DNA of 32,465 bases from positions 1-32,465 of the IMG/VR virus record IMGVR_UViG_3300035520_000350, one strand, 5' to 3'. Made by a program: the position numbers and the translations under genes. The notes beneath the pieces were generated by a model. The model was not told where the DNA came from. It ran no database searches and saw only the letters and a list, made by a program, of their open reading frames with translations. Of the stretch, positions 5,509 to 29,479 are shown in pieces. The first letter of the stretch is position 1, and the number at the start of each line of letters is the position of its first letter. The DNA comes from a virus. Lineage: Duplodnaviria > Heunggongvirae > Uroviricota > Caudoviricetes.

Positions 5509-6143
5509 TTATTGTTGTCTTCCTTTGTTAAGTATTCACTATTCTTACTTTCATAGATTTCCTCTTTATGAGATAGATCACTGATAGCAGTAATAATGGT
5601 AGAAGTTAAACCATCTGTCAGTAGTATCTTCTGGTTCAGATGCTGTTCTTCTATACCGTATTTAGCATATCCCTCACTATAATAGATCATCTTAAAGCCT
5701 TCATCATAACGAAGTTCTCTACTCTTCAGTTTAGGGATAACCTTTCTGAAGAATTGCAACTTATTGCGTACCCGGCTGTTAAAGCCACCTATTGAAAGAA
5801 TATCTTCGTTGGTAGCAATAAGAGTATTAACCCAGTACTCACTAAGTTCTTTTACATACATTACTCCATCAGGAGTGATATCGTATACGAGATAAAATAC
5901 CTTATCCATATGAATAGTGTCATCACTGGTATAAATACCACCTATCTCATACTTGTTATCTAACTTCTGGTCTAATGCATGTCTCTCAAACTCTTCCACA
6001 TGCACCCCTTCATGTAATGGATAGCTAGACATATTCCGGATATCTTCAAGAGTCTTCTCTAACTTGATAGCATCATCCTGACTAAGTACTACATCCAATA
6101 CAAGCCTTACATGTGAATTGTCTTTCTTCATCATAATTTTCAT
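5505..6143 (-). CDS. Hypothetical protein
   Basis: 212-aa ORF, ATGA overlap with the upstream gene, GAGGAG RBS. Confidence 0.8.
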   Translation of the reverse strand: MKIMMKKDNSHVRLVLDVVLSQDDAIKLEKTLEDIRNMSSYPLHEGVHVEEFERHALDQKLDNKYEIGGIYTSDDTIHMDKVFYLVYDITPDGVMYVKELSEYWVNTLIATNEDILSIGGFNSRVRNKLQFFRKVIPKLKSRELRYDEGFKMIYYSEGYAKYGIEEQHLNQKILLTDGLTSTIITAISDLSHKEEIYESKNSEYLTKEDNNK

Positions 6144-6502
6144 TTCTCCTCTACTTTGATTATATTTTCATACTGACTTAAGATAGGAATTCTATATCCT
6201 ACTACAGTAACCTCATAAGTATTACCTACTTCAAGTTTACCCTGGATATCAGAACTATTGAACTTAAATCTTATGAATAGATCTGTATTCTCAAATACAT
6301 GTATTTCTCCAGATTCATCCTTTGTAAATACTATGTACTTAGAATCTGCTGACTTATCATCAGAAGATTCATAGATACGATCTTTGTCAGTTACTGTTAC
6401 CACATAAGTATGGTCATTGAAGACTGTACTTACAGAGTATAATACTCCAATGATAATAGTAGCTACTACAAGACAAATAACAATAAATCTAGTCTTACTC
6501 AT
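6140..6502 (-). CDS. Membrane-anchored/secreted small protein, DUF1523-like phage family
   Basis: N-terminal hydrophobic helix; VFENTD...KFNSSDIQGKL...Y.V.V.G.RIP.LS.Y.NII pattern recalled from a widespread phage family; AAGGAGG RBS. Confidence 0.6.
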   Translation of the reverse strand: MSKTRFIVICLVVATIIIGVLYSVSTVFNDHTYVVTVTDKDRIYESSDDKSADSKYIVFTKDESGEIHVFENTDLFIRFKFNSSDIQGKLEVGNTYEVTVVGYRIPILSQYENIIKVEEK

Positions 6503-6529: not shown

Positions 6530-6559
6530 AGAGTAGGAGATATTAATATCTCCTACTCT
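6530..6559. terminator. 30-bp perfect palindrome downstream of the radical SAM cassette
   Basis: AGAGTAGGAGATATT|AATATCTCCTACTCT; the preceding + strand A-run gives a U-tail on the minus transcript. Confidence 0.7.
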
Positions 6560-6567
6560 AGAGTTCT

Positions 6568-7575
6568 TTACTTATTCTTCTTGTAATCCTGAACAAGATT
6601 ACCACAGCAAAGTGGAAGCTCTGCTTTAGCTGCTACGTCTACGATAACCTTTAAACCACAGCTCTCTACTCTTTCCTTGATCTTATTCATGTTCTCCCAG
6701 TTCCACTGTATTGCATCCTCAAGACCATGTTCTTTAGTAGCGTTTGTTACGTTCAAAGGTGTAATCTTTACACAGAACACATCAGGGTTCAATCCGTATA
6801 ACTTATCCGGATTAAGCTCCCATCCTGCTCCACAGATGAAGTTTAAAGTAATAAGTCTATTGCTGTTAGGCAAATAGTTAAACTCTTTCTTCATCTCTTC
6901 TATAGTTACTACATTAGCTCCACCAAACAAAGCTCTTCTTTCATCTTCGTTAGTAGAGTTTGTAGAGATCTGGATATGCATGAAACCATCCAGATATGCT
7001 TTAGTATACATTACATCTTCCTTAAGTACTTCTATCGGTCCTTTACCAAACACATTTACCTTAGGTAAGATAGTGTTGTAGCAAGGTAAGAAAGTGAATC
7101 CCTCTCTGTAATGTTTCATATCACTCATTACTTCGAGGATATTCTTCCAATTGTACTGTGGTTCTCCCATTCTGGCAAAACCTACCTTGATCTTGTCACT
7201 CTTAGTAACTTCCGGATGCTGAGCAAAGACAAACTCTAACTGCTCCCACATCTCTTCTTTACTAAGGTTTCCTCTGAAACCAAGTTCCGGTACTAAGCAG
7301 AACTGACACTTCTGTGGGCAACCATACTGGGTGCTGATAGCAGTTAGCCACTTCTCCTCATATGGTACAAGATTCTGCTTAATCAAAGATTCATCATCAG
7401 TCATGATGATTTCCTGAGACTTACCTTTTGTGTTTACATCCTGCATGGATGTAGTCTCGATATAGAAGTCTTTCTCCTTGTTGTATAACACGTATACACT
7501 TCCGCTAGGATACTTATACTCCTTTACTAACTCAAAGTGTTTACTTCCCAGTCCATTGTTTTCTAAGGTCTTCAT
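6568..7575 (-). CDS. RlmN/Cfr-like (class A) radical SAM methyltransferase homolog
   Basis: IETT (RlmN VETV/E105), ISTQYGCPQKCQFC (SSQVGCxxxCxFC), GFRGNLS, RMGEP (MGEP), C-terminal CCGNL (ACGQL/C355). Start reassigned to ATG 7575 (GGAGAGG RBS). Confidence 0.8.
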   Translation of the reverse strand: MKTLENNGLGSKHFELVKEYKYPSGSVYVLYNKEKDFYIETTSMQDVNTKGKSQEIIMTDDESLIKQNLVPYEEKWLTAISTQYGCPQKCQFCLVPELGFRGNLSKEEMWEQLEFVFAQHPEVTKSDKIKVGFARMGEPQYNWKNILEVMSDMKHYREGFTFLPCYNTILPKVNVFGKGPIEVLKEDVMYTKAYLDGFMHIQISTNSTNEDERRALFGGANVVTIEEMKKEFNYLPNSNRLITLNFICGAGWELNPDKLYGLNPDVFCVKITPLNVTNATKEHGLEDAIQWNWENMNKIKERVESCGLKVIVDVAAKAELPLCCGNLVQDYKKNK

Positions 7576-7981
7576 TTGCAATCCTCTCCTTTGCTTCATA
7601 TAGTATTCTATAAGCTGAACTCAATCCTGCTCTATCATCAAGCAGAATATTGTAGTATATCTTATCACCAGTGAATGGTATATAAGGTGGAGACTGGTTT
7701 ACATAGTCTACCTTAATACCAACACTTTCACAGTAATCAAGCATAAACTTGTTCTTTGATTCATCACAACAAGTGCTTAGAATCAGTGTACAACCCATAC
7801 TCTTACATTCCTTAAGTAAGTTTATTACTTTAGTATAGGTATACCCCTTATTGTAGTAATCATATATCACATTATCAAAGTCAAATGCGATAATGATACA
7901 GTTATGAGCTCTCCAGTTCTCAACTAATCTATCTACACATAGTTTATCATTGAGATATGGATCGTCTAATGGATATTCCAT
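7541..7981 (-). CDS. HAD-superfamily phosphatase
   Basis: Motif I IAFDFDNVI, motif II LST, motifs III/IV KIYYNILLDDR; AAGGAGG RBS. Confidence 0.8.
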   Translation of the reverse strand: MEYPLDDPYLNDKLCVDRLVENWRAHNCIIIAFDFDNVIYDYYNKGYTYTKVINLLKECKSMGCTLILSTCCDESKNKFMLDYCESVGIKVDYVNQSPPYIPFTGDKIYYNILLDDRAGLSSAYRILYEAKERIANEDLRKQWTGK

Positions 7982-7996
7982 TAATCTAGTCCTCCT

Positions 7997-8731
7997 TTAA
8001 GAACAAGACTGTTCGATGTCTTCATACTTCTTCATCCATATCTTTCTTTCTTCTTCACTATTGCCAAAGAAATACGGATACAGAGTATTGTTTGTTGTAA
8101 AGAAGTAGTTATGATACTCGCCATCCGGTAAGAACAATACTCCTTCTTCTGATATCTGGTCCTTTATAGCATTGAAGTTTTCATAAGCCTTTCTGTTACC
8201 AAACATCTGTCTAAATGTAATCTGCTTAACTCCAATACCTTTCATTGTCTCTATATAAGCTAAGCAGTCATCTTTAGTCATTCTCTCATTAAGTACATTG
8301 ATGACTCTTACCTTAGTACTTTCTTCAATATAGGGAAGCATTATTCTAAGTCTATTTATCATAAACTGATCATCCTTCTCTATACTGAGAGCAATCTTCC
8401 GGAACAATGGTACAAGTTGTGAACTCTTATCCGGAATGATTCTTGTATGTACGTCTAATCTCTTACCATAAGCTCTACCAATATCATAGACCTTATTGAA
8501 GAAATAAAAGTTGTCTTTATATCCATAGAATGGATCTCCTCCACCAGAGAGATTTATTGTCGGTGCATTTGATTCAGATACACACTTCTCTAAGTAGACC
8601 CAGTCTATCTTACTTACATCTGTCTTTTGATTCTGCAATATCGGATGATGTTTACTGATACAGTACTTACATCTCTGATCACATCCGAAATTGGTTATGA
8701 TAGTGAAACCTTTATTAGTTTCAGTATACAT
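7997..8731 (-). CDS. Radical SAM protein of unknown reaction
   Basis: ITNFGCDQRCKYC (CxxxCxxC) and LSGGGDP. Start reassigned to ATG 8731 (GGGAGG RBS). Confidence 0.8.
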   Translation of the reverse strand: MYTETNKGFTIITNFGCDQRCKYCISKHHPILQNQKTDVSKIDWVYLEKCVSESNAPTINLSGGGDPFYGYKDNFYFFNKVYDIGRAYGKRLDVHTRIIPDKSSQLVPLFRKIALSIEKDDQFMINRLRIMLPYIEESTKVRVINVLNERMTKDDCLAYIETMKGIGVKQITFRQMFGNRKAYENFNAIKDQISEEGVLFLPDGEYHNYFFTTNNTLYPYFFGNSEEERKIWMKKYEDIEQSCS

Positions 8732-8758
8732 AATGTACTTCCTCCCTTTCACAAGCAA

Positions 8759-8792
8759 ATAGAGTAGGAAGCCGTTAGACATCCTACTCTAT
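8759..8792. terminator. Hairpin downstream of the RNAP beta-prime gene
   Basis: ATAGAGTAGGA-N12-TCCTACTCTAT; same AGAGTAGGA arm as 6530-6559. Confidence 0.6.
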
Positions 8793-8806: not shown

Positions 8807-9058
8807 TTAATATCCTATACCGTAGATCTCTTTCTGCCTAGCTTTAACAGCCATGATCTTAGCTTTCTGAGTCTTGTTATAGTTGTTTCTTCCTAACCAC
8901 ATCAATGTATTAGCATTAATGATTGTATCACGTTGTACTAATACAGATGCATTGATCTTACCATCGTTCCTAGATATATACATAGCATTACGAGGATTGA
9001 ATATCTCATAACACCTCTCAAAGAACTTACGGTTTATGATCAAGAAGATATTGAGCGC
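8807..9058 (-). CDS. rpoC: RNA polymerase beta-prime N-terminal subunit, exon 5 (ALNIFLIINRK...YGIGY*)
   Basis: Extends the 78-aa track ORF 5 codons upstream to GCG(9058), just after a terminal G (9059). Joins in frame to DYDGD to give DYDGD-ALN. Confidence 0.85.
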   Translation of the reverse strand, partial: ALNIFLIINRKFFERCYEIFNPRNAMYISRNDGKINASVLVQRDTIINANTLMWLGRNNYNKTQKAKIMAVKARQKEIYGIGY

Positions 9059-9433
9059 CGTATTAGTCCATTGTTTCCAATGGTACTGACTATATTTTAC
9101 TATCTATAAAGATAGAATGCTCTTTCCAGCTACGTATCAATAGTAGCCGTACTCCTCCTCAAGAGGATAGTCGATACAGGTTTCTATAATAAAGTACATT
9201 ATAGTTTCCCACGGTAGTACCAAGCTAACCATATCTAAGATATGGTCCTTAGGCTTTCTTAGAGAGCTACTTCGTCTATGGTCTAAGGGTATATATCTCC
9301 TCTCGGCTTCATATACCAGTCTTATTCAACTCTTACCGTTAGCCATTATAATATAATGACCCCTGTGATGAACAGGAAAAGCATTTTCTGACACACCTAG
9401 TACCTAATTGCACCTATTTAGGTACGATCTGGT
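9059..9433 (-). mobile_element. Group I intron 4 (375 nt, no ORF), immediately after the catalytic DYDGD
   Basis: P7 strands ATCGACTAT (9175-9167) and ATATAGTC (9095-9088); P9 CCATTG-GAAA-CAATGG (9083-9068); 5' exon ends in U; terminal G. Confidence 0.85.
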
Positions 9434-9538
9434 ATCACCGTCGTAGTCCGCCGCCAAAGGTGGTAATATTTGCAGCGGAGTTTGCATTACAAAATCGTCA
9501 TTATAACCAACACAGAACATTTGCATAATTGAGCCGTA
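9434..9538 (-). CDS. rpoC: RNA polymerase beta-prime N-terminal subunit, exon 4 with the catalytic motif
   Basis: Translates YGSIMQMFCVGYNDDFVMQTPLQILPPLAADYDGD, matching bacterial beta-prime NADFDGD. Too short for the ORF track. Confidence 0.9.
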
Positions 9539-9958
9539 TATCTCTTCATACTAGTTCGCTACACTAGTACAGTTCTCTTATGAACTTCTATAGTTGTTGT
9601 CTATACGTTGAGACTATATCATCACCTTTTACCTATTTATATAATAAGCAGTCAGGTGTCCCTCCACTTCGAGTATACTATACTCTACATAATAGTCGTT
9701 GAACCTTTATCTATAATAAATATAGATACTTGGTTGCTGATTGGACATTGTTAACAACACTTAGGACCTATACTCCTATGCAAAAAAGTATAAGCTTTTA
9801 TTTCACCATATGTCATCTCTCTACTTGTTTCTGACTTTCGTCTCCTTTTATTAAGGCAAGAGAGCCTTAGCCTATTCCAGCTAGATCTTCTCAAAAAGAG
9901 TTAGATCATTCAAAGGGATTATACCACTATATTTCTATAATAGCAGCCTACGTAATCC
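9539..9958 (-). mobile_element. Group I intron 3 (about 420 nt; boundaries uncertain by 3 nt)
   Basis: AGCTGGAA (P), CAATCAGCAACCAAG (Q), GGTTCAACGACTA (9705-9693, R), GATGATATAGTCT (9623-9611, S). Confidence 0.88.
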
Positions 9959-9982
9959 AGCAATGGTCGGATTTCTATTAAT
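9959..9982 (-). CDS. rpoC: RNA polymerase beta-prime N-terminal subunit, micro-exon 3 (INRNPTIA)
   Basis: ATT AAT AGA AAT CCG ACC ATT GCT supplies the NRxPT motif (E. coli NRAPTL) missing from all neighbouring segments. Confidence 0.85.
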
Positions 9983-11207
9983 TGCACGATTTTAGGTATC
10001 ATTACGCACCTAATACACTTCGTAGAGTGTAGAGTAGTCTTTCACTACTTTCCAGAGCACATCTTTATCTGCCATATACTGTTACCATATATGGCAGATA
10101 GCAATCGTTTCTATTTAATGGATTTACTTAGAGCTAATATCACTCTAATACCAACCCCTAACGTTTGGGTTATACTATACTCAGTTCGTGTATACTATTG
10201 TATACCTTATTTTCAAAGAGCCTGGGCTATTTTCAGGTTGCCTCCCATTTAGATATTTCTATCAATGCTCTTATCTACCTTTCTATGCTCGTTGTACTAG
10301 AAATTATATTCACAGGTAATACTCCTCCAAGTTTTATACTTAATATTCTGAACTTGACCAAGATTAACCCCAGTAACTTCTGATATCTGTTTTAAAGTAA
10401 GATTTCCTTCTTGCAGACATTCGCAAACTGACCTAACTTGTTCTTCTGTAAGTTTAGAACTTTCTTCGATTTTTCCTGTATGAGGATGCTTTAAACCAAG
10501 TCTAATAGCTTCTTTTTGATTGTAAGAGCCATCACACCATTCCAAATTATCTGGATTGGCAATTCCTGGATAATCAATCCAGTTAGCAGTCTTTCTTCCA
10601 TTGATATGGTTAACCATCATATCCTCACAACCTGGAAAATATCTGAATGTAAGCATCATAAGACGATGTACTCTACAAGTGTGAGCCATACCATCTTTAA
10701 ACCTTAATACAGCAATTCTATATCCTGGACCATCCCATGAAGTACTCATAAAACGATTCATATAAACATGCCATATTCTTCCGAATGTACTTATTGCGTA
10801 ATAAGGCAATATTCCTGGAGCTGCTTGATCTGTTATCATTTCAAACCTTTCTCCTGGTAACCATTCTGGAACTACAAATACTGGTGATTGATGCTCCAAA
10901 TCATACTTAAATTCTTTAGATATTTTACCCATTTTAAGAAACCTCCTTGTAATGTATTTTAGGGTTATAGTAAGGTTTCTTAATTTGTTATAATATAATT
11001 CTAGTGCGGACTGTGGATTGTTAAAGTACTTAGGCTTACTATCACCATATACCATCCATAAGATTTGTTTCTAGGTTTCCCAAGCCTAATAAAATATTTC
11101 ATTTATTAGGCACTTATGGCTTTACCAGTTCCCCGCTTTTAGATTGCTGTTTCACAGAGAATCACTTCCCTGATGACCATTATTCAAAACCCAATGAATT
11201 ATTGTTT
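9983..11207 (-). mobile_element. Group I intron 2 (about 1225 nt) carrying an HNH homing endonuclease; boundaries uncertain by up to 4 nt
   Basis: AAAGCGGGGAAC (P) and GTCCGCAC (Q) lie 5' of the ORF. ACAACGAGCAT (10295-10285, R) and AAGATGTGCTCT (10065-10054, S) lie 3' of it, followed by a GAAA-capped P9-like hairpin. CTAGAATT/AATTTCTAG closes a stem around the ORF. Confidence 0.88.
10297..10932 (-). CDS. Intron-encoded HNH homing endonuclease (NUMOD4/I-HmuI-like N-terminus, C-terminal HTH)
   Basis: YAISTFGRI, RVHRLMMLTF, VNHINGRKTAN...NLEWC...YN. Start reassigned to ATG 10932 (AAGGAGG RBS). Confidence 0.9.
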   Translation of the reverse strand: MGKISKEFKYDLEHQSPVFVVPEWLPGERFEMITDQAAPGILPYYAISTFGRIWHVYMNRFMSTSWDGPGYRIAVLRFKDGMAHTCRVHRLMMLTFRYFPGCEDMMVNHINGRKTANWIDYPGIANPDNLEWCDGSYNQKEAIRLGLKHPHTGKIEESSKLTEEQVRSVCECLQEGNLTLKQISEVTGVNLGQVQNIKYKTWRSITCEYNF

Positions 11208-11462
11208 AATCACTGGCAACCCTTCAGGTGTACTGTTCTTGATTATTGTGTCGATTATACTTGCCACTCTATCGTCTTTTGTTGCTGTAGCACGATATAC
11301 TACATCATAAGCTTCAGAATAACTCATGTTATACAACCTGTTGAGTATATTGATAATCTGTGGTTGAAGCATTATCACAAGCATAGTATAAGGTAAAGTA
11401 ACCTGATCAATTCTTAATGATGGCTTCTGTGAGATTACCGCTCTACCCGAGAAGTTATATCT
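11208..11462 (-). CDS. rpoC: RNA polymerase beta-prime N-terminal subunit, exon 2 (RYNFSGRAVI...EGLPVI)
   Basis: Matches beta-prime RVDYSGRSVI...PVLL; begins right after a terminal G at 11463. Confidence 0.88.
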
Positions 11463-11799
11463 CCTTCTGTTCATTCAGATTCGTCACATCTGAACCAAAA
11501 CTCTAAAACTTCTAGAGTTGCTATATATTTCTATATAGAGCAGACTATATCTTCATCCAAGTATATACTTGGAGCTAACCATTTCGATTTGAGTCGACTT
11601 ATATTGCACCAATAATGCGACACCCCTTTTAATGACTTGGGCTCTACGTACTTACGTACTAGTCGTTGAACGCTTCTTATATATTGATATATAAGATTCG
11701 CAGCTAGTTCTCTTATAGACACTTCTCAAATCTATAAGCTTTTCCAGCATAAGGAAAGTCGGCATCTATATATTACTACATAGATGGGCTAATCTCTTA
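11463..11799 (-). mobile_element. Group I intron 1 (337 nt, no ORF)
   Basis: P1 GGU|UAA-GAGA-UUA-GCC with U.G at the splice site; TATGCTGGAAA (P); TTCAACGACTAG (11670-11659, R); AAGATATAGTCTG (11553-11541, S); GAAA-capped P9 (11538-11521); terminal G. Confidence 0.9.
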
Positions 11800-12855
11800 A
11801 CCTGCAACTAAAGATCTTAACTGCCCTTTCTTACCAGAGCAGATAGCAATAATCTCATCATGTAATTCCATGAACTTCATCTGTAACTTATACAACATTT
11901 GATTCTTCTTCTTTGGATCTCTCTGCATACGAGTCTTATCAGCGTTAATACGATGAACGTGTTTGTTGATCATATTATAGATACCATTGATAGGCTCGTA
12001 ATACATGTTCTTGTCTCTGATATCTGCTGGTCTAAGATGTGTAGTAAACACCGGAATAGAATGAGTGAATACTTTATCTCTATCCTGCATAATATCGTCA
12101 TAATAGTCTTTCTTCTTCGGATTCTTCTTGAGATAGTATTCCATAATCTCATCGAATCTCTGATAGAAAGCCATCATGCCAATTCCAAAGAATGGTTCAT
12201 TAGAAGGAGGGTTGATTACCTCACTTTCATGACCGTTCTGATCAATCTGTACATTATAGAACAAGATGTTCTGTAGTACAAATCCTTTCTTGGCATTCTT
12301 CTGCTCTACGTTAATCTTTGATTGACCAAAGAAAAACTCAAGAGACTTATAAATGTCTGGATGTATTACATGGTACTGATCTTTCAATACTACCCATCCA
12401 AACATCTCGAAGTTGTCGTCTACATACTTACATTTAGTATGACACTTCTCACAGACGATCCCATGATTTATACGGCTCTTAAGATTACCGCACTGACATG
12501 AGTATCGATCTGCAAACGGATTCAAGTCACCTAACTTCTGTCCATACTTGGTACTGAAGATTCCATTAGGATCTTTGATATCCTTCTTGATAGTTGCTTT
12601 TGGAGAAGATATGATGAATCCATTACCAGTGGCAATGTCATGATCTTTCTCTTCATCCAAGTTTATCCGTTCAAGTATAGTGTAATAATCGTACTCAGGA
12701 GAATACGGATAAGAGTACGATATGTTGATAGTAACTTCATTAGGTTTCTTTTCTTCATTGTCTTCCACAGGTGGTGTAATGAAGTTCTCACTACCAACAA
12801 ATGAATTCAACAGATCTTGTATATCATCGGTTAGAATTCCAGTTGAATCACTCAT
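11800..12855 (-). CDS. rpoC: RNA polymerase beta-prime N-terminal subunit, exon 1
   Basis: Zn finger CQCG...CEKC, IPVFTTHLRP, ends GKKGQLRSLVAG (E. coli GKQGRFRQNLLG); AAAGGAG RBS. Confidence 0.9.
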
Positions 12856-22970: not shown

Positions 22971-23764
22971 GTACGTTATATAAAAAAGTCAATTACCTTA
23001 TCAATGCTGTCTTTCTAAAGTCAGTATTGATAACAGAGTATGATATAAGTAAGGCTAATATATCTATTCTATTAGATAAGGGATTGATAACGAAAGATCA
23101 ATATAATTACTTATATAGATTACCTAAGATAGATAGAGAAGTATTTGTTGGAAATATGATTAGACATGATCCAACTAAGAAAACCATTTATAATGCTATC
23201 AAATCAGGTATAATTACAGCAAAGCAAAATCTATTTTTGCAAAATAACGTACAAGACCCTGAGGTTATACGTATTGCTAACGATGCTGTATTTATAATGC
23301 GGAATAGTCTTCTTACGAAGACTAAGTTTGGTGTTATAGAGTTTAAGCAGAAGAAGCAATACAGTATCTTTGCTAGAGTAGGAGGATTATCTATATTCTA
23401 TGGTAGCAAGATGGGAGACATAGACCTTGATGTATTAGGTCTAGGAAAGGATCAAACTCTCTTACATGCAGACTATATGCTAACCTTTATAGGAAACTTG
23501 TTCTATCTTATAGAGAGTAGTACATTATCTCATGTAATGGAATACTATCTAGTATTCTATCAGAAGTATCTTAAGAGAGAACTTGAACCTGGATTCTATA
23601 GAGAACTCAATGAAGCTTCCCTGTTTACTGTTCCTGCTCCTAGAGGTAATGGTAAATTTGGAATGATGTTTACTAATGAGATTAGTAAGATAGACATATC
23701 TTATAATGCTGGTATACTGAGAGAGCTCTATGGAATCATTACTAGTTCAGATTTGAGTAATTAG
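22967..23764 (+). CDS. Hypothetical protein with DNA-polymerase-palm-like acidic motifs
   Basis: EYDISKAN (motif A-like) and IRIANDAVF (motif C-like). The ORF is solid; the function is tentative. Confidence 0.5.
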   Translation: MSTLYKKVNYLINAVFLKSVLITEYDISKANISILLDKGLITKDQYNYLYRLPKIDREVFVGNMIRHDPTKKTIYNAIKSGIITAKQNLFLQNNVQDPEVIRIANDAVFIMRNSLLTKTKFGVIEFKQKKQYSIFARVGGLSIFYGSKMGDIDLDVLGLGKDQTLLHADYMLTFIGNLFYLIESSTLSHVMEYYLVFYQKYLKRELEPGFYRELNEASLFTVPAPRGNGKFGMMFTNEISKIDISYNAGILRELYGIITSSDLSN

Positions 23765-23803
23765 CCAGTAGGACTTACAATCCTACTGGCTCTTTTATTT
23801 TTT
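23763..23803. terminator. Intrinsic terminator between convergent operons
   Basis: AGCCAGTAGGA-cttacaa-TCCTACTGGCT then CTTTTATTTTTT. Confidence 0.85.
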
Positions 23804-29438: not shown

Positions 29439-29446
29439 AATCTATA

Positions 29447-29479
29447 GGGGTAGGAGTAATATCCTACCCCTTATCTTTT
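29447..29479 (+). terminator. Intrinsic terminator
   Basis: GGGGTAGGA-gtaata-TCCTACCCC then TTATCTTTT. Confidence 0.8.

What the first reader, a model, noticed from the sequence alone, without database searches (positions are those of the whole stretch)
6530..8792. Palindrome-bounded cassette: radical SAM + HAD phosphatase + RlmN-like radical SAM
Seen: three co-directional, tightly linked genes flanked on both sides by hairpins with the identical arms AGAGTAGGA/TCCTACTCT, directly downstream of the RNAP gene. Known: radical SAM plus phosphatase/kinase combinations occur in nucleotide- and RNA-modification pathways; RlmN makes m2A on 23S A2503 and tRNA A37. Inference: a phage module for a new base/nucleotide modification or RNA-targeting activity (protecting phage tRNA/DNA, altering host ribosomes, or removing a defence nucleotide signal). 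I do not recognise this trio as a described system. Linkage could also be incidental.
Basis: partly seen in the sequence, partly recalled or inferred. Interest (0 to 1): 0.8.

Follow-up and report, generated by a model that had tools for sequence, protein, structure and literature searches.

The report
Phage radical-SAM pair with NAD-linked phosphatase
A jumbo phage of gut anaerobes carries a small operon whose core is a widely conserved but undescribed pair of radical-SAM enzymes; the phosphatase between them comes from phage NAD-rebuilding operons, so the set probably acts on an NAD/ADP-ribose-type nucleotide, not on ribosomal RNA.

Summary
Three minus-strand genes lie between two stable hairpins with identical 9-nt arms, just downstream of an intron-split RNA polymerase gene. 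They encode a 244-aa radical SAM, a 146-aa HAD phosphatase and a 335-aa RlmN/Cfr-fold radical SAM.

The hairpins are not cassette borders. They belong to a genome-wide family of GTAGG-armed terminator hairpins and are absent from 88%-identical relatives.

The conserved unit is the two radical-SAM genes: they are adjacent in 54 of 58 distinct loci, down to 36% identity and in both gene orders. The HAD lies between them only in this phage's close clade (16 loci, split in two).

The RlmN-like enzyme keeps the methyl-carrier cysteine. It lacks the resolving cysteine and the RNA-binding N-domain.

Each gene has NAD links elsewhere:
- The small enzyme is fused to, or follows, an NMN-adenylyltransferase-like domain in seven lineages.
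- More distant HAD relatives sit between Prs/Adps-like and Nampt/Namat-like genes, a NARP1-type operon, in most of 49 phage loci.

I read it as an undescribed radical-SAM module acting on an NAD/ADP-ribose-type nucleotide; the product is unknown. This scan had already noted the same enzyme pair on other DNA. I found no paper describing it.

The parts
8759..8792 (-). Upstream hairpin: 11-bp stem (ATAGAGTAGGA / TCCTACTCTAT) with a 12-nt loop, lying between the stop of the RNAP beta-prime-like gene (8807) and the operon's first start codon. It has no clean U-tract (tail AUUUGCUUGUG), so it is probably a leaky terminator or an RNA-stability or processing element.
   Evidence: -20.7 kcal/mol, z -4.2; not called by the terminator scan
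7997..8731 (-). Small radical SAM enzyme, 244 aa (P0003). It has CX3CX2C at C17/C21/C24 and an SGGGDP SAM-binding motif. It is a minimal radical-SAM core with a C-terminal beta extension, and it is the conserved partner of the RlmN-like enzyme.
   Evidence: phrog_17662; pLDDT 90.8; viperin Z 14.3, MoaA 13.2; adjacency
7541..7981 (-). Capless HAD-superfamily phosphatase, 146 aa (P0002). The catalytic motifs are intact: D34xD36, T/S70, K107, D115-D116. It belongs to a family that normally lies between Prs/Adps-like and Nampt/Namat-like genes in phages.
   Evidence: phrog_1238; 2obb
6568..7575 (-). RlmN/Cfr-fold radical SAM enzyme, 335 aa from the ATG at 7575 (343 aa from 7599; P0001). In 335-aa numbering it has CX3CX2C at C86/C90/C93, a GFARMGEP motif, invariant C165, and a C-terminal CCG motif in which C324 aligns with the Cfr methyl-carrier Cys. 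It has no resolving Cys and no RlmN N-domain.
   Evidence: phrog_24834; pLDDT 92
6530..6559 (-). Downstream hairpin: a perfect 30-nt palindrome (13-14-bp stem) followed on the minus strand by UUUUUAUCUUU. This is the intrinsic terminator of the operon.
   Evidence: terminator-like on the minus strand; -23.6 kcal/mol, z -5.2

Best explanation
The stretch is one three-gene operon on the minus strand. It lies after a leaky hairpin downstream of the RNAP gene and is closed by an ordinary intrinsic terminator.

Its core is a conserved two-enzyme radical-SAM module carried by many jumbo and mega phages and by a few CPR, Bdellovibrionales and archaeal MAG contigs. One enzyme has the RlmN/Cfr fold. 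It keeps the methyl-carrier cysteine but lacks the resolving cysteine and the RNA-binding N-domain. The other is a minimal radical-SAM enzyme; its nearest solved folds are viperin and MoaA, but peptide-modifying cores score within about one Z unit.

In this phage lineage a capless HAD phosphatase has been placed between the two genes. It comes from the family that normally sits inside NARP1-type (Prs/Adps - HAD - Nampt/Namat) NAD-reconstitution operons.

Inferred mechanism:
1. The pair performs radical, probably C-methylating, chemistry on a small adenine or nicotinamide nucleotide of the NAD / NMN / ADP-ribose family, not on rRNA or tRNA.
2. The HAD removes a phosphate from the precursor or the product.
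3. The module serves NAD supply or counter-defence against NAD-targeting immunity in strictly anaerobic hosts.

Shown: gene identities, motifs, folds, gene linkage, fusions and contexts. Inferred: the substrate class, the methylation, the role of the HAD and the biological purpose.
For: Pair linkage. The two radical-SAM genes are adjacent in 54 of 58 distinct loci, at 36-88% identity and in both orders. They often overlap by a few to about 50 nt, judged from longest-ORF calls. No other neighbour is shared by the distant loci.

RlmN/Cfr relationship.
- The profile hits RlmN at 4e-15 and Cfr over its full length at 3e-12.
- Foldseek's top hits are all RlmN.
- C324 aligns with the Cfr methyl-carrier Cys.

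Departures from RNA-acting RlmN.
- The resolving-Cys column is A or T in all 34 sequences.
- The N-terminus is three beta strands and aligns only from about RlmN residue 83 onward.

Small-enzyme NAD link.
- It carries an N-terminal NMN-adenylyltransferase-like domain in L070, L085, P0376, P0381 and P0511.
- A stand-alone NMNAT-like gene lies directly upstream of the pair in MAG loci L083 and L084, and L083 has a Nudix gene directly downstream.
- L004 has AAA_28 and NADAR genes next to the pair, and L005 has a YpsA/SLOG gene.

HAD NAD link.
- In 49 phage loci with 38-51%-identical HADs, a Prs/Adps-like gene is adjacent in 40 and a Nampt/Namat-like gene in 34, usually with the HAD between them.
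- That gene pair is the NARP1 operon of Osterman et al. (bioRxiv 10.1101/2024.02.11.579819).
- The radical-SAM-linked HADs form one clade (100/99) among the NAD-linked ones.
- L132 has a weaker RlmN-like gene (47.8 bits against the profile) beside Prs-HAD-Nampt.

Hairpins. GTAGG-type arms occur in 12 of 125 perfect hairpins genome-wide, against 0.6 expected.
Against: - No substrate, product or phenotype is known. The NAD link is guilt by association.
- This phage itself has no Nampt, Prs/Adps or NMNAT-like gene, so the link is not visible locally.
- In the distant viral loci most neighbours are DNA methylases, helicases, ligases and other replication genes. Only single NMNAT-like, Nudix and deoxyribosyltransferase genes appear there.
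- The small enzyme's fold match to viperin is tied with peptide-modifying cores.
- The HAD is dispensable in relatives: it is absent in many and split in L023 and L046.
Confidence: 0.5

Rival explanations
1. RNA modification module. The RlmN-like enzyme methylates an adenine in host or phage rRNA or tRNA, as RlmN and Cfr do. The small radical SAM makes a second RNA modification. The HAD trims an RNA-end or nucleotide phosphate.
For: RlmN and Cfr are the only close solved or curated relatives, and the methyl-carrier Cys is kept. RtcB and RNA ligase genes occur near the pair in single distant loci. The phage encodes a tRNA-Tyr.
Against: The resolving Cys is absent in all 34 family members and the N-terminal RNA-binding domain is missing. 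NCBIfam scores of 42 bits are far below the RlmN cut-off of 290 and cover only the cluster region. The family is mildly acidic, with median pI 6.1 (weak evidence). The recurrent partners are NMNAT-like, Nudix and NARP1-type genes, not tRNA genes.
Confidence: 0.15
2. DNA or dNTP hypermodification. The pair alters a deoxynucleotide or the phage DNA to evade restriction, and the HAD dephosphorylates a nucleotide intermediate.
For: Neighbours in the distant loci are rich in DNA methylases, helicases, DnaB, topoisomerase, ligase, a nucleoside deoxyribosyltransferase, a dATP/dGTP diphosphohydrolase and PTPS. The operon sits among early or replication-type genes next to the RNAP gene.
Against: No base-exchange or transferase partner (DpdA/TGT-like, glycosyltransferase, kinase) is conserved with the pair. 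The pair also occurs in cellular MAG contigs beside NMNAT-like and Nudix genes. The replication-gene context is simply the usual home of accessory genes in jumbo phages.
Confidence: 0.12
3. The HAD is a passenger. The radical-SAM pair works on its own, on an unknown substrate, and the HAD gene merely landed between the two genes in one lineage without sharing their pathway.
For: The HAD is confined to the close clade, absent from 38 of 54 pair-bearing distinct loci, and interrupted in L023 and L046. Its family's normal home is a different operon.
Against: It is inserted precisely between two genes that are coupled elsewhere. Its ends overlap or abut both of them, and it is retained in 14 distinct intact versions. 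Its own family and the small enzyme's fusion partners point independently to the same NAD/ADPR metabolism.
Confidence: 0.2

Closest known systems
RlmN / Cfr (class A radical-SAM methylases; PDB 3RFA, 5HR7, 6FZ6, 9P0P; TIGR00048, TIGR04432)
   Same: Same fold and core motifs: CX3CX2C, an MGEP-type motif, and a C-terminal CGQL-type motif whose Cys aligns with the methyl-carrier Cys. They are the best sequence and structure matches.
   Different: The resolving Cys (E. coli C118) is A or T. The N-terminal RNA-binding domain is replaced by a short beta region. A second Cys sits next to the carrier Cys, and there is an extra invariant Cys in LPC[FY]N. Scores are far below the family cut-offs. The enzyme is always paired with a second radical-SAM enzyme, and its context is nucleotide/NAD genes, not translation genes.
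NARP1 (Adps + Namat) phage NAD+ reconstitution operon (Osterman et al., bioRxiv 10.1101/2024.02.11.579819)
   Same: The middle gene of the cassette belongs to a HAD family that in most other phages lies inside Prs/Adps-like - Nampt/Namat-like operons.
   Different: This phage has neither Adps/Prs nor Namat/Nampt. Here the HAD is flanked by two radical-SAM enzymes. The preprint mentions no phosphatase or radical-SAM component.
Viperin / MoaA (radical-SAM enzymes acting on nucleoside triphosphates; PDB 5VSL, 1TV7)
   Same: They are the nearest solved folds of the small radical SAM: Z 14.3 (rmsd 3.1 A, 208 aligned) and Z 13.2 (rmsd 4.5 A, 222 aligned).
   Different: There is no sequence-level family match. 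The scores are tied within about one Z unit with SuiB and PqqE cores. The small enzyme is much shorter and has its own C-terminal beta extension.
BT0820-type capless HAD phosphatases (PDB 2OBB; NF046079)
   Same: Small cap-less HAD fold with all four catalytic motifs; it is the best solved-structure sequence match.
   Different: It scores only 21 bits against a cut-off of 165. The substrate of either protein is unknown.

Membership tests
RlmN/Cfr class A radical-SAM methylases | CX3CX2C radical-SAM [4Fe-4S] cluster motif | tested here: met
   C86/C90/C93 (335-aa numbering) are invariant in 34 sequences and align with the RlmN/Cfr cluster.
RlmN/Cfr class A radical-SAM methylases | C-terminal methyl-carrier cysteine (E. 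coli RlmN C355 / Cfr C338) in a CGQL-type motif | tested here: met
   Invariant C324 in (L)CCG(Q/N)L aligns with the Cfr AACGQL motif.
RlmN/Cfr class A radical-SAM methylases | Resolving cysteine upstream of the cluster (E. coli RlmN C118) | tested here: not met
   The column aligned with C118 of wild-type RlmN (3RF9) and with the Cfr equivalent is A or T in all 34 family members.
RlmN/Cfr class A radical-SAM methylases | N-terminal accessory (RNA-binding) domain preceding the radical-SAM core | tested here: not met
   Profile alignments start at RlmN residues 83-109. The AF2 model shows only three beta strands before the core.
RlmN/Cfr class A radical-SAM methylases | Score above the curated family cut-off (TIGR00048 290 bits; TIGR04432 550 bits) | tested here: not met
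   42 and 36 bits, with partial matches only.
RlmN/Cfr class A radical-SAM methylases | C2/C8 methylation of A2503 in 23S rRNA or A37 in tRNA | not testable with these tools
   Needs biochemistry.
Radical SAM superfamily (small 244-aa enzyme) | CX3CX2C motif, glycine-rich SAM-binding motif and partial TIM-barrel fold | tested here: met
   C17/C21/C24 and SGGGDP are conserved. AF2 pLDDT is 90.8. Radical-SAM cores fill the fold-search list, with a top Z of 14.3.
Viperin family | Sequence-level family match and a fold match that stands clear of other radical-SAM cores | tested here: inconclusive
   Viperin ranks first (Z 14.3) but is tied within about 1 Z with MoaA, SuiB and PqqE. There is no Pfam or NCBIfam viperin hit.
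HAD phosphatase superfamily | Motif I DxD, motif II S/T, motif III K, motif IV DD | tested here: met
   D34, D36, K107, D115 and D116 are invariant and T70 is nearly invariant in 26 sequences. There are weak NF046079 and TIGR01681 hits and a match to PDB 2OBB.
NARP1 (Adps + Namat) NAD+ reconstitution pathway | A Prs-family Adps gene and a Nampt-family Namat gene in the same phage | tested here: not met
   There is no PF04095 match, and tblastn with Prs-like and Nampt-like queries finds nothing in the 243-kb genome.
Anaerobic ribonucleotide reductase activase (NrdG) | A small radical SAM enzyme partnered with NrdD | tested here: not met
   NrdD lies 50 kb away (58.8-61.5 kb) and has its own weak Fer4_12 ORF directly downstream. 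The small enzyme's conserved partner is the RlmN-like gene.

The most novel reading that the evidence does not exclude
The radical-SAM pair, with the HAD or an NMN-adenylyltransferase-like enzyme as interchangeable third parts, is a fourth, radical-chemistry route by which phages of anaerobes handle NAD. It would make a C-methylated or otherwise altered NAD/ADPR-type nucleotide. That nucleotide either resists bacterial NADase immunity or neutralises ADPR-derived immune signals. The RlmN-type methyl-carrier mechanism would here be applied to a small molecule for the first time.
Probability: 0.3. Interest if true: 0.85.

Novelty: new variant of a known kind. Interest (0 to 1): 0.6.

Why it matters
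Class A radical-SAM methylases are known only as RNA enzymes. One of them, Cfr, is a clinically important antibiotic-resistance determinant. A large phage-borne branch that has lost the RNA-specific features, always works with a second radical-SAM enzyme, and keeps company with NAD and ADP-ribose genes would widen the chemistry known for this fold.

NAD depletion is a major bacterial anti-phage strategy, and three phage NAD-rebuilding pathways (NARP1-3) have been described. None of the three NAD papers searched by term mentions a radical-SAM enzyme or a HAD-type phosphatase as part of such a pathway. This work gives two concrete leads for bench work:
- the radical-SAM pair itself;
- the unreported HAD gene lying inside NARP1-type operons.

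It also warns annotators not to call these genes rlmN or cfr.

Tried and rejected
- **Mobile cassette bounded by inverted repeats: rejected.** The exact arms occur as hairpins only here. Similar GTAGG-armed hairpins are spread over the whole genome. Relatives at 88% identity have different terminators.
- **Stop-codon recoding** to explain the ORF-poor stretch 9043-10297: rejected. Neither TAG=Q nor TGA=W opens it. It is intron sequence.
- **Small enzyme as NrdG: rejected**.
- **blastn of the region against deposited phages:** no match.
- **Direct binding of the two radical-SAM proteins:** Complex prediction gave no verdict, with scores of 0.00 and 0.00. This counts neither for nor against binding.
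- **Profile search of the small enzyme against PDB sequences:** only chance hits to L23.
- **Protein atlas:** only generic radical-SAM clusters, mostly viral, with automatic 'molybdenum cofactor' names.
- **Literature searches** for phage radical SAM, RlmN, adenylyltransferase, anti-defence, and NARP with HAD: no description of the pair or of a HAD in NARP operons.
- **Isoelectric points:** the family is mildly acidic, which is too weak to weigh much.
Full report
**What is there**

The window is the first 32.5 kb of a 243-kb virus record estimated 99% complete. It is 36% G+C and uses the standard code here.

Between 6530 and 8792 the minus strand carries three tightly packed genes:
- A 244-aa radical SAM enzyme at 8731..7997. 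The ATG at 8731 follows GGGAGGAAG. The longer ORF from 8782 would start inside the hairpin.
- A 146-aa HAD-type phosphatase at 7981..7541.
- A 335-aa RlmN/Cfr-like radical SAM enzyme at 7575..6568, which overlaps the HAD gene by 35 nt.

Upstream lies an RNA polymerase beta-prime-like gene broken by group I introns. Rfam finds RF00028 at 11521-11809. Pfam RNA_pol_Rpb1_2 matches ORF 11199-11474. A DYDGD motif is readable near 9480.

**The hairpins**

The arms AGAGTAGGA/TCCTACTCT flank the operon exactly as reported. There are 5 matches in the window against 0.64 expected, and no other hairpin with these arms in the genome. Both fold stably, at -23.6 and -20.7 kcal/mol.

On the minus strand the downstream hairpin is followed by UUUUUAUCUUU and is called terminator-like. 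The upstream one lacks a clean U-tract.

They are not cassette borders, for three reasons:
- Of 125 perfect hairpins (stem 9 bp or more) in the genome, 12 carry GTAGG in the arm, against 0.6 expected. Many read AGGGTAGGA, GGGGTAGGAG or AGCCAGTAGGA. This is a genome-wide terminator style.
- Relatives whose operon is 88% identical have unrelated terminators.
- Only the 100%-identical contigs L009 and L010 keep the arms.

**The enzymes**

*The large enzyme.* Its profile hits RlmN (4e-15) and, over its full length, Cfr (3e-12). Its AF2 model has pLDDT 92 and finds RlmN first. The cluster motif, a GFARMGEP motif and a C-terminal CCG(Q/N)L are conserved, and invariant C324 aligns with the Cfr methyl-carrier Cys.

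Two RlmN features are missing. The position of the resolving Cys (E. coli C118) is A or T in all 34 aligned members. The N-terminal domain is replaced by three beta strands. NCBIfam scores of 42 bits are far below the cut-offs. There is also an extra invariant Cys in LPC[FY]N.

*The small enzyme.* It has CX3CX2C and SGGGDP and a minimal radical-SAM core (pLDDT 90.8). Its nearest solved folds are viperin (Z 14.3) and MoaA (Z 13.2), tied with peptide-modifying cores.

*The HAD.* It keeps all four catalytic motifs. It matches only BT0820-type capless HADs, and weakly.

**What is conserved**

I collected loci from IMG/VR, from metagenome look-ups and from GTDB genomes and scored their ORFs with profiles of the three proteins.

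Among 58 distinct loci:
- 54 have the two radical-SAM genes adjacent. The order is RlmN-like then small in 20, small then RlmN-like in 18, and small-HAD-RlmN-like in 16.
- Identities run from 36 to 88%.
- Judged from longest-ORF calls, the two genes usually overlap (by about 4 to 55 nt) or lie within about 14 nt of each other, with larger gaps in a few loci.
- The four loci without a partner are at contig ends or truncated.

No other neighbour is shared by the distant loci. The HAD occurs only in the close clade, is missing from part of it, and is split in L023 and L046. So the pair, not the trio, is the unit.

Two members (L072, L132) carry a large insertion at the cluster motif of the RlmN-like gene; in L072 it is an intein with LAGLIDADG and intein-splicing Pfam hits, while L132's was not scanned. 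Such elements typically sit in conserved active sites.

The family is rare in cellular genomes: 9 loci among about 185,000 species, several of them probably phage contigs.

**What the partners say**

*The small enzyme.* It carries an N-terminal cytidylyltransferase-fold domain, closest to archaeal-type NMN adenylyltransferase, in L070, L085, P0376, P0381 and P0511. In MAG loci L083 and L084 a stand-alone NMNAT-like gene lies directly upstream of the pair, and L083 has a Nudix gene downstream. L004 has AAA_28 and NADAR genes beside the pair, and L005 has a YpsA/SLOG gene.

*The HAD family.* It gave the clearest signal. In 49 phage loci holding 38-51%-identical HADs, a Prs-like gene is adjacent in 40 and a Nampt-like gene in 34, usually as Prs-HAD-Nampt. 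The Prs-like plus Nampt-like operon is the NARP1 pathway, Adps plus Namat, which rebuilds NAD+ from ADP-ribose and nicotinamide (bioRxiv 10.1101/2024.02.11.579819). I did not test whether these particular genes are Adps/Namat or true Prs/Nampt. That preprint mentions no phosphatase and no radical chemistry.

In a HAD tree the radical-SAM-linked HADs form one clade (100/99) set among the NAD-linked ones. The root is uncertain.

L132 has a weaker RlmN-like gene directly beside Prs-HAD-Nampt.

**Caveats**

- This phage has no Nampt, Prs/Adps or NMNAT-like gene of its own.
- Its only radical-SAM genes are these two.
- Its NrdD has its own NrdG-like ORF.
- In distant viral loci the neighbours are mostly replication and DNA-methylase genes, with single nucleotide-metabolism genes.
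- The test for direct binding of the two enzymes gave no verdict.
- No product is known.

**Reading**

The best-supported explanation is an undescribed radical-SAM pair that acts on a small nucleotide of the NAD/NMN/ADP-ribose family. In this lineage it is joined by a phosphatase recruited from NARP1-type operons. The likely role is NAD supply or counter-defence in anaerobic hosts. Close relatives occur in assemblies named Hungatella hathewayi and Enterocloster citroniae and in an unclassified isolate (Bacterium 1xD42-87).

Rivals remain open at lower odds: RNA methylation, DNA or dNTP hypermodification, and the HAD as a mere passenger.

Earlier notes of this scan reached a similar NAD reading for the same pair on other DNA. 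I had found the NMNAT-like fusions before reading those notes, and afterwards tested the adjacency in MAG loci myself. The HAD-in-NARP1 link is new here. Literature searches found no description of the pair.

Noticed in passing
L124-L172 (e.g. L124:4138-6901, L089:2935-6005): A capless HAD phosphatase gene sits between Prs/Adps-like and Nampt/Namat-like genes in most of 49 phage loci. The NARP1 preprint describes a two-gene operon and mentions no phosphatase, so this looks like an unreported third gene of NARP1-type operons.
   Followed up: partly
window 8807-12855: The RNAP beta-prime-like gene is fragmented by group I intron(s). Rfam RF00028 matches 11521-11809, Pfam RNA_pol_Rpb1_2 matches ORF 11199-11474, and a DYDGD motif lies near 9480. 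A 252-aa intron ORF (10297-11055) has no Pfam hit. Other first-reader notes cover this.
   Followed up: partly
L072:4735-6789 and L132:2209-4137: The RlmN-like genes are interrupted by a ~345-aa insertion next to the CX3CX2C motif. In L072 it has LAGLIDADG and intein-splicing hits; L132's insertion was not scanned against Pfam. This suggests the site is catalytically essential.
   Followed up: partly
own genome C1:58810-62277 (outside the window): Anaerobic ribonucleotide reductase NrdD lies in a 1021-aa open frame. Its Pfam match is split into two pieces about 800 nt apart, which may mark an insertion or intein. A weak Fer4_12 (NrdG-like) 124-aa ORF follows, and then the genome's single tRNA-Tyr at 62567-62649.
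   Followed up: no
whole genome; in the window e.g. 23763-23791, 29446-29471: A genome-wide family of perfect hairpins has purine-rich arms containing GTAGG/TAGGA: 12 of 125 against 0.6 expected. Most are followed by T-runs, which suggests a phage-specific terminator consensus.
   Followed up: partly
L002:4820-5902, L003:6954-8333, L007:8124-8891, L008:8124-9071: A third, non-homologous radical-SAM gene sits next to the pair in several phages. In L003 it has a weak B12-binding-like N-terminus, and in L007/L008 it has Fer4_12 plus a zinc ribbon. It is not conserved across the family.
   Followed up: no
L023 and L046 (HAD at 5592-5768 and 5784-6020): The HAD gene between the two radical-SAM genes is split into two ORFs in these relatives. 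The phosphatase therefore seems dispensable.
   Followed up: no
window 6140-6502: The gene just after the operon's terminator encodes a DUF1523 / phrog_301 'secreted protein' with an N-terminal hydrophobic segment. It is not conserved with the pair.
   Followed up: no
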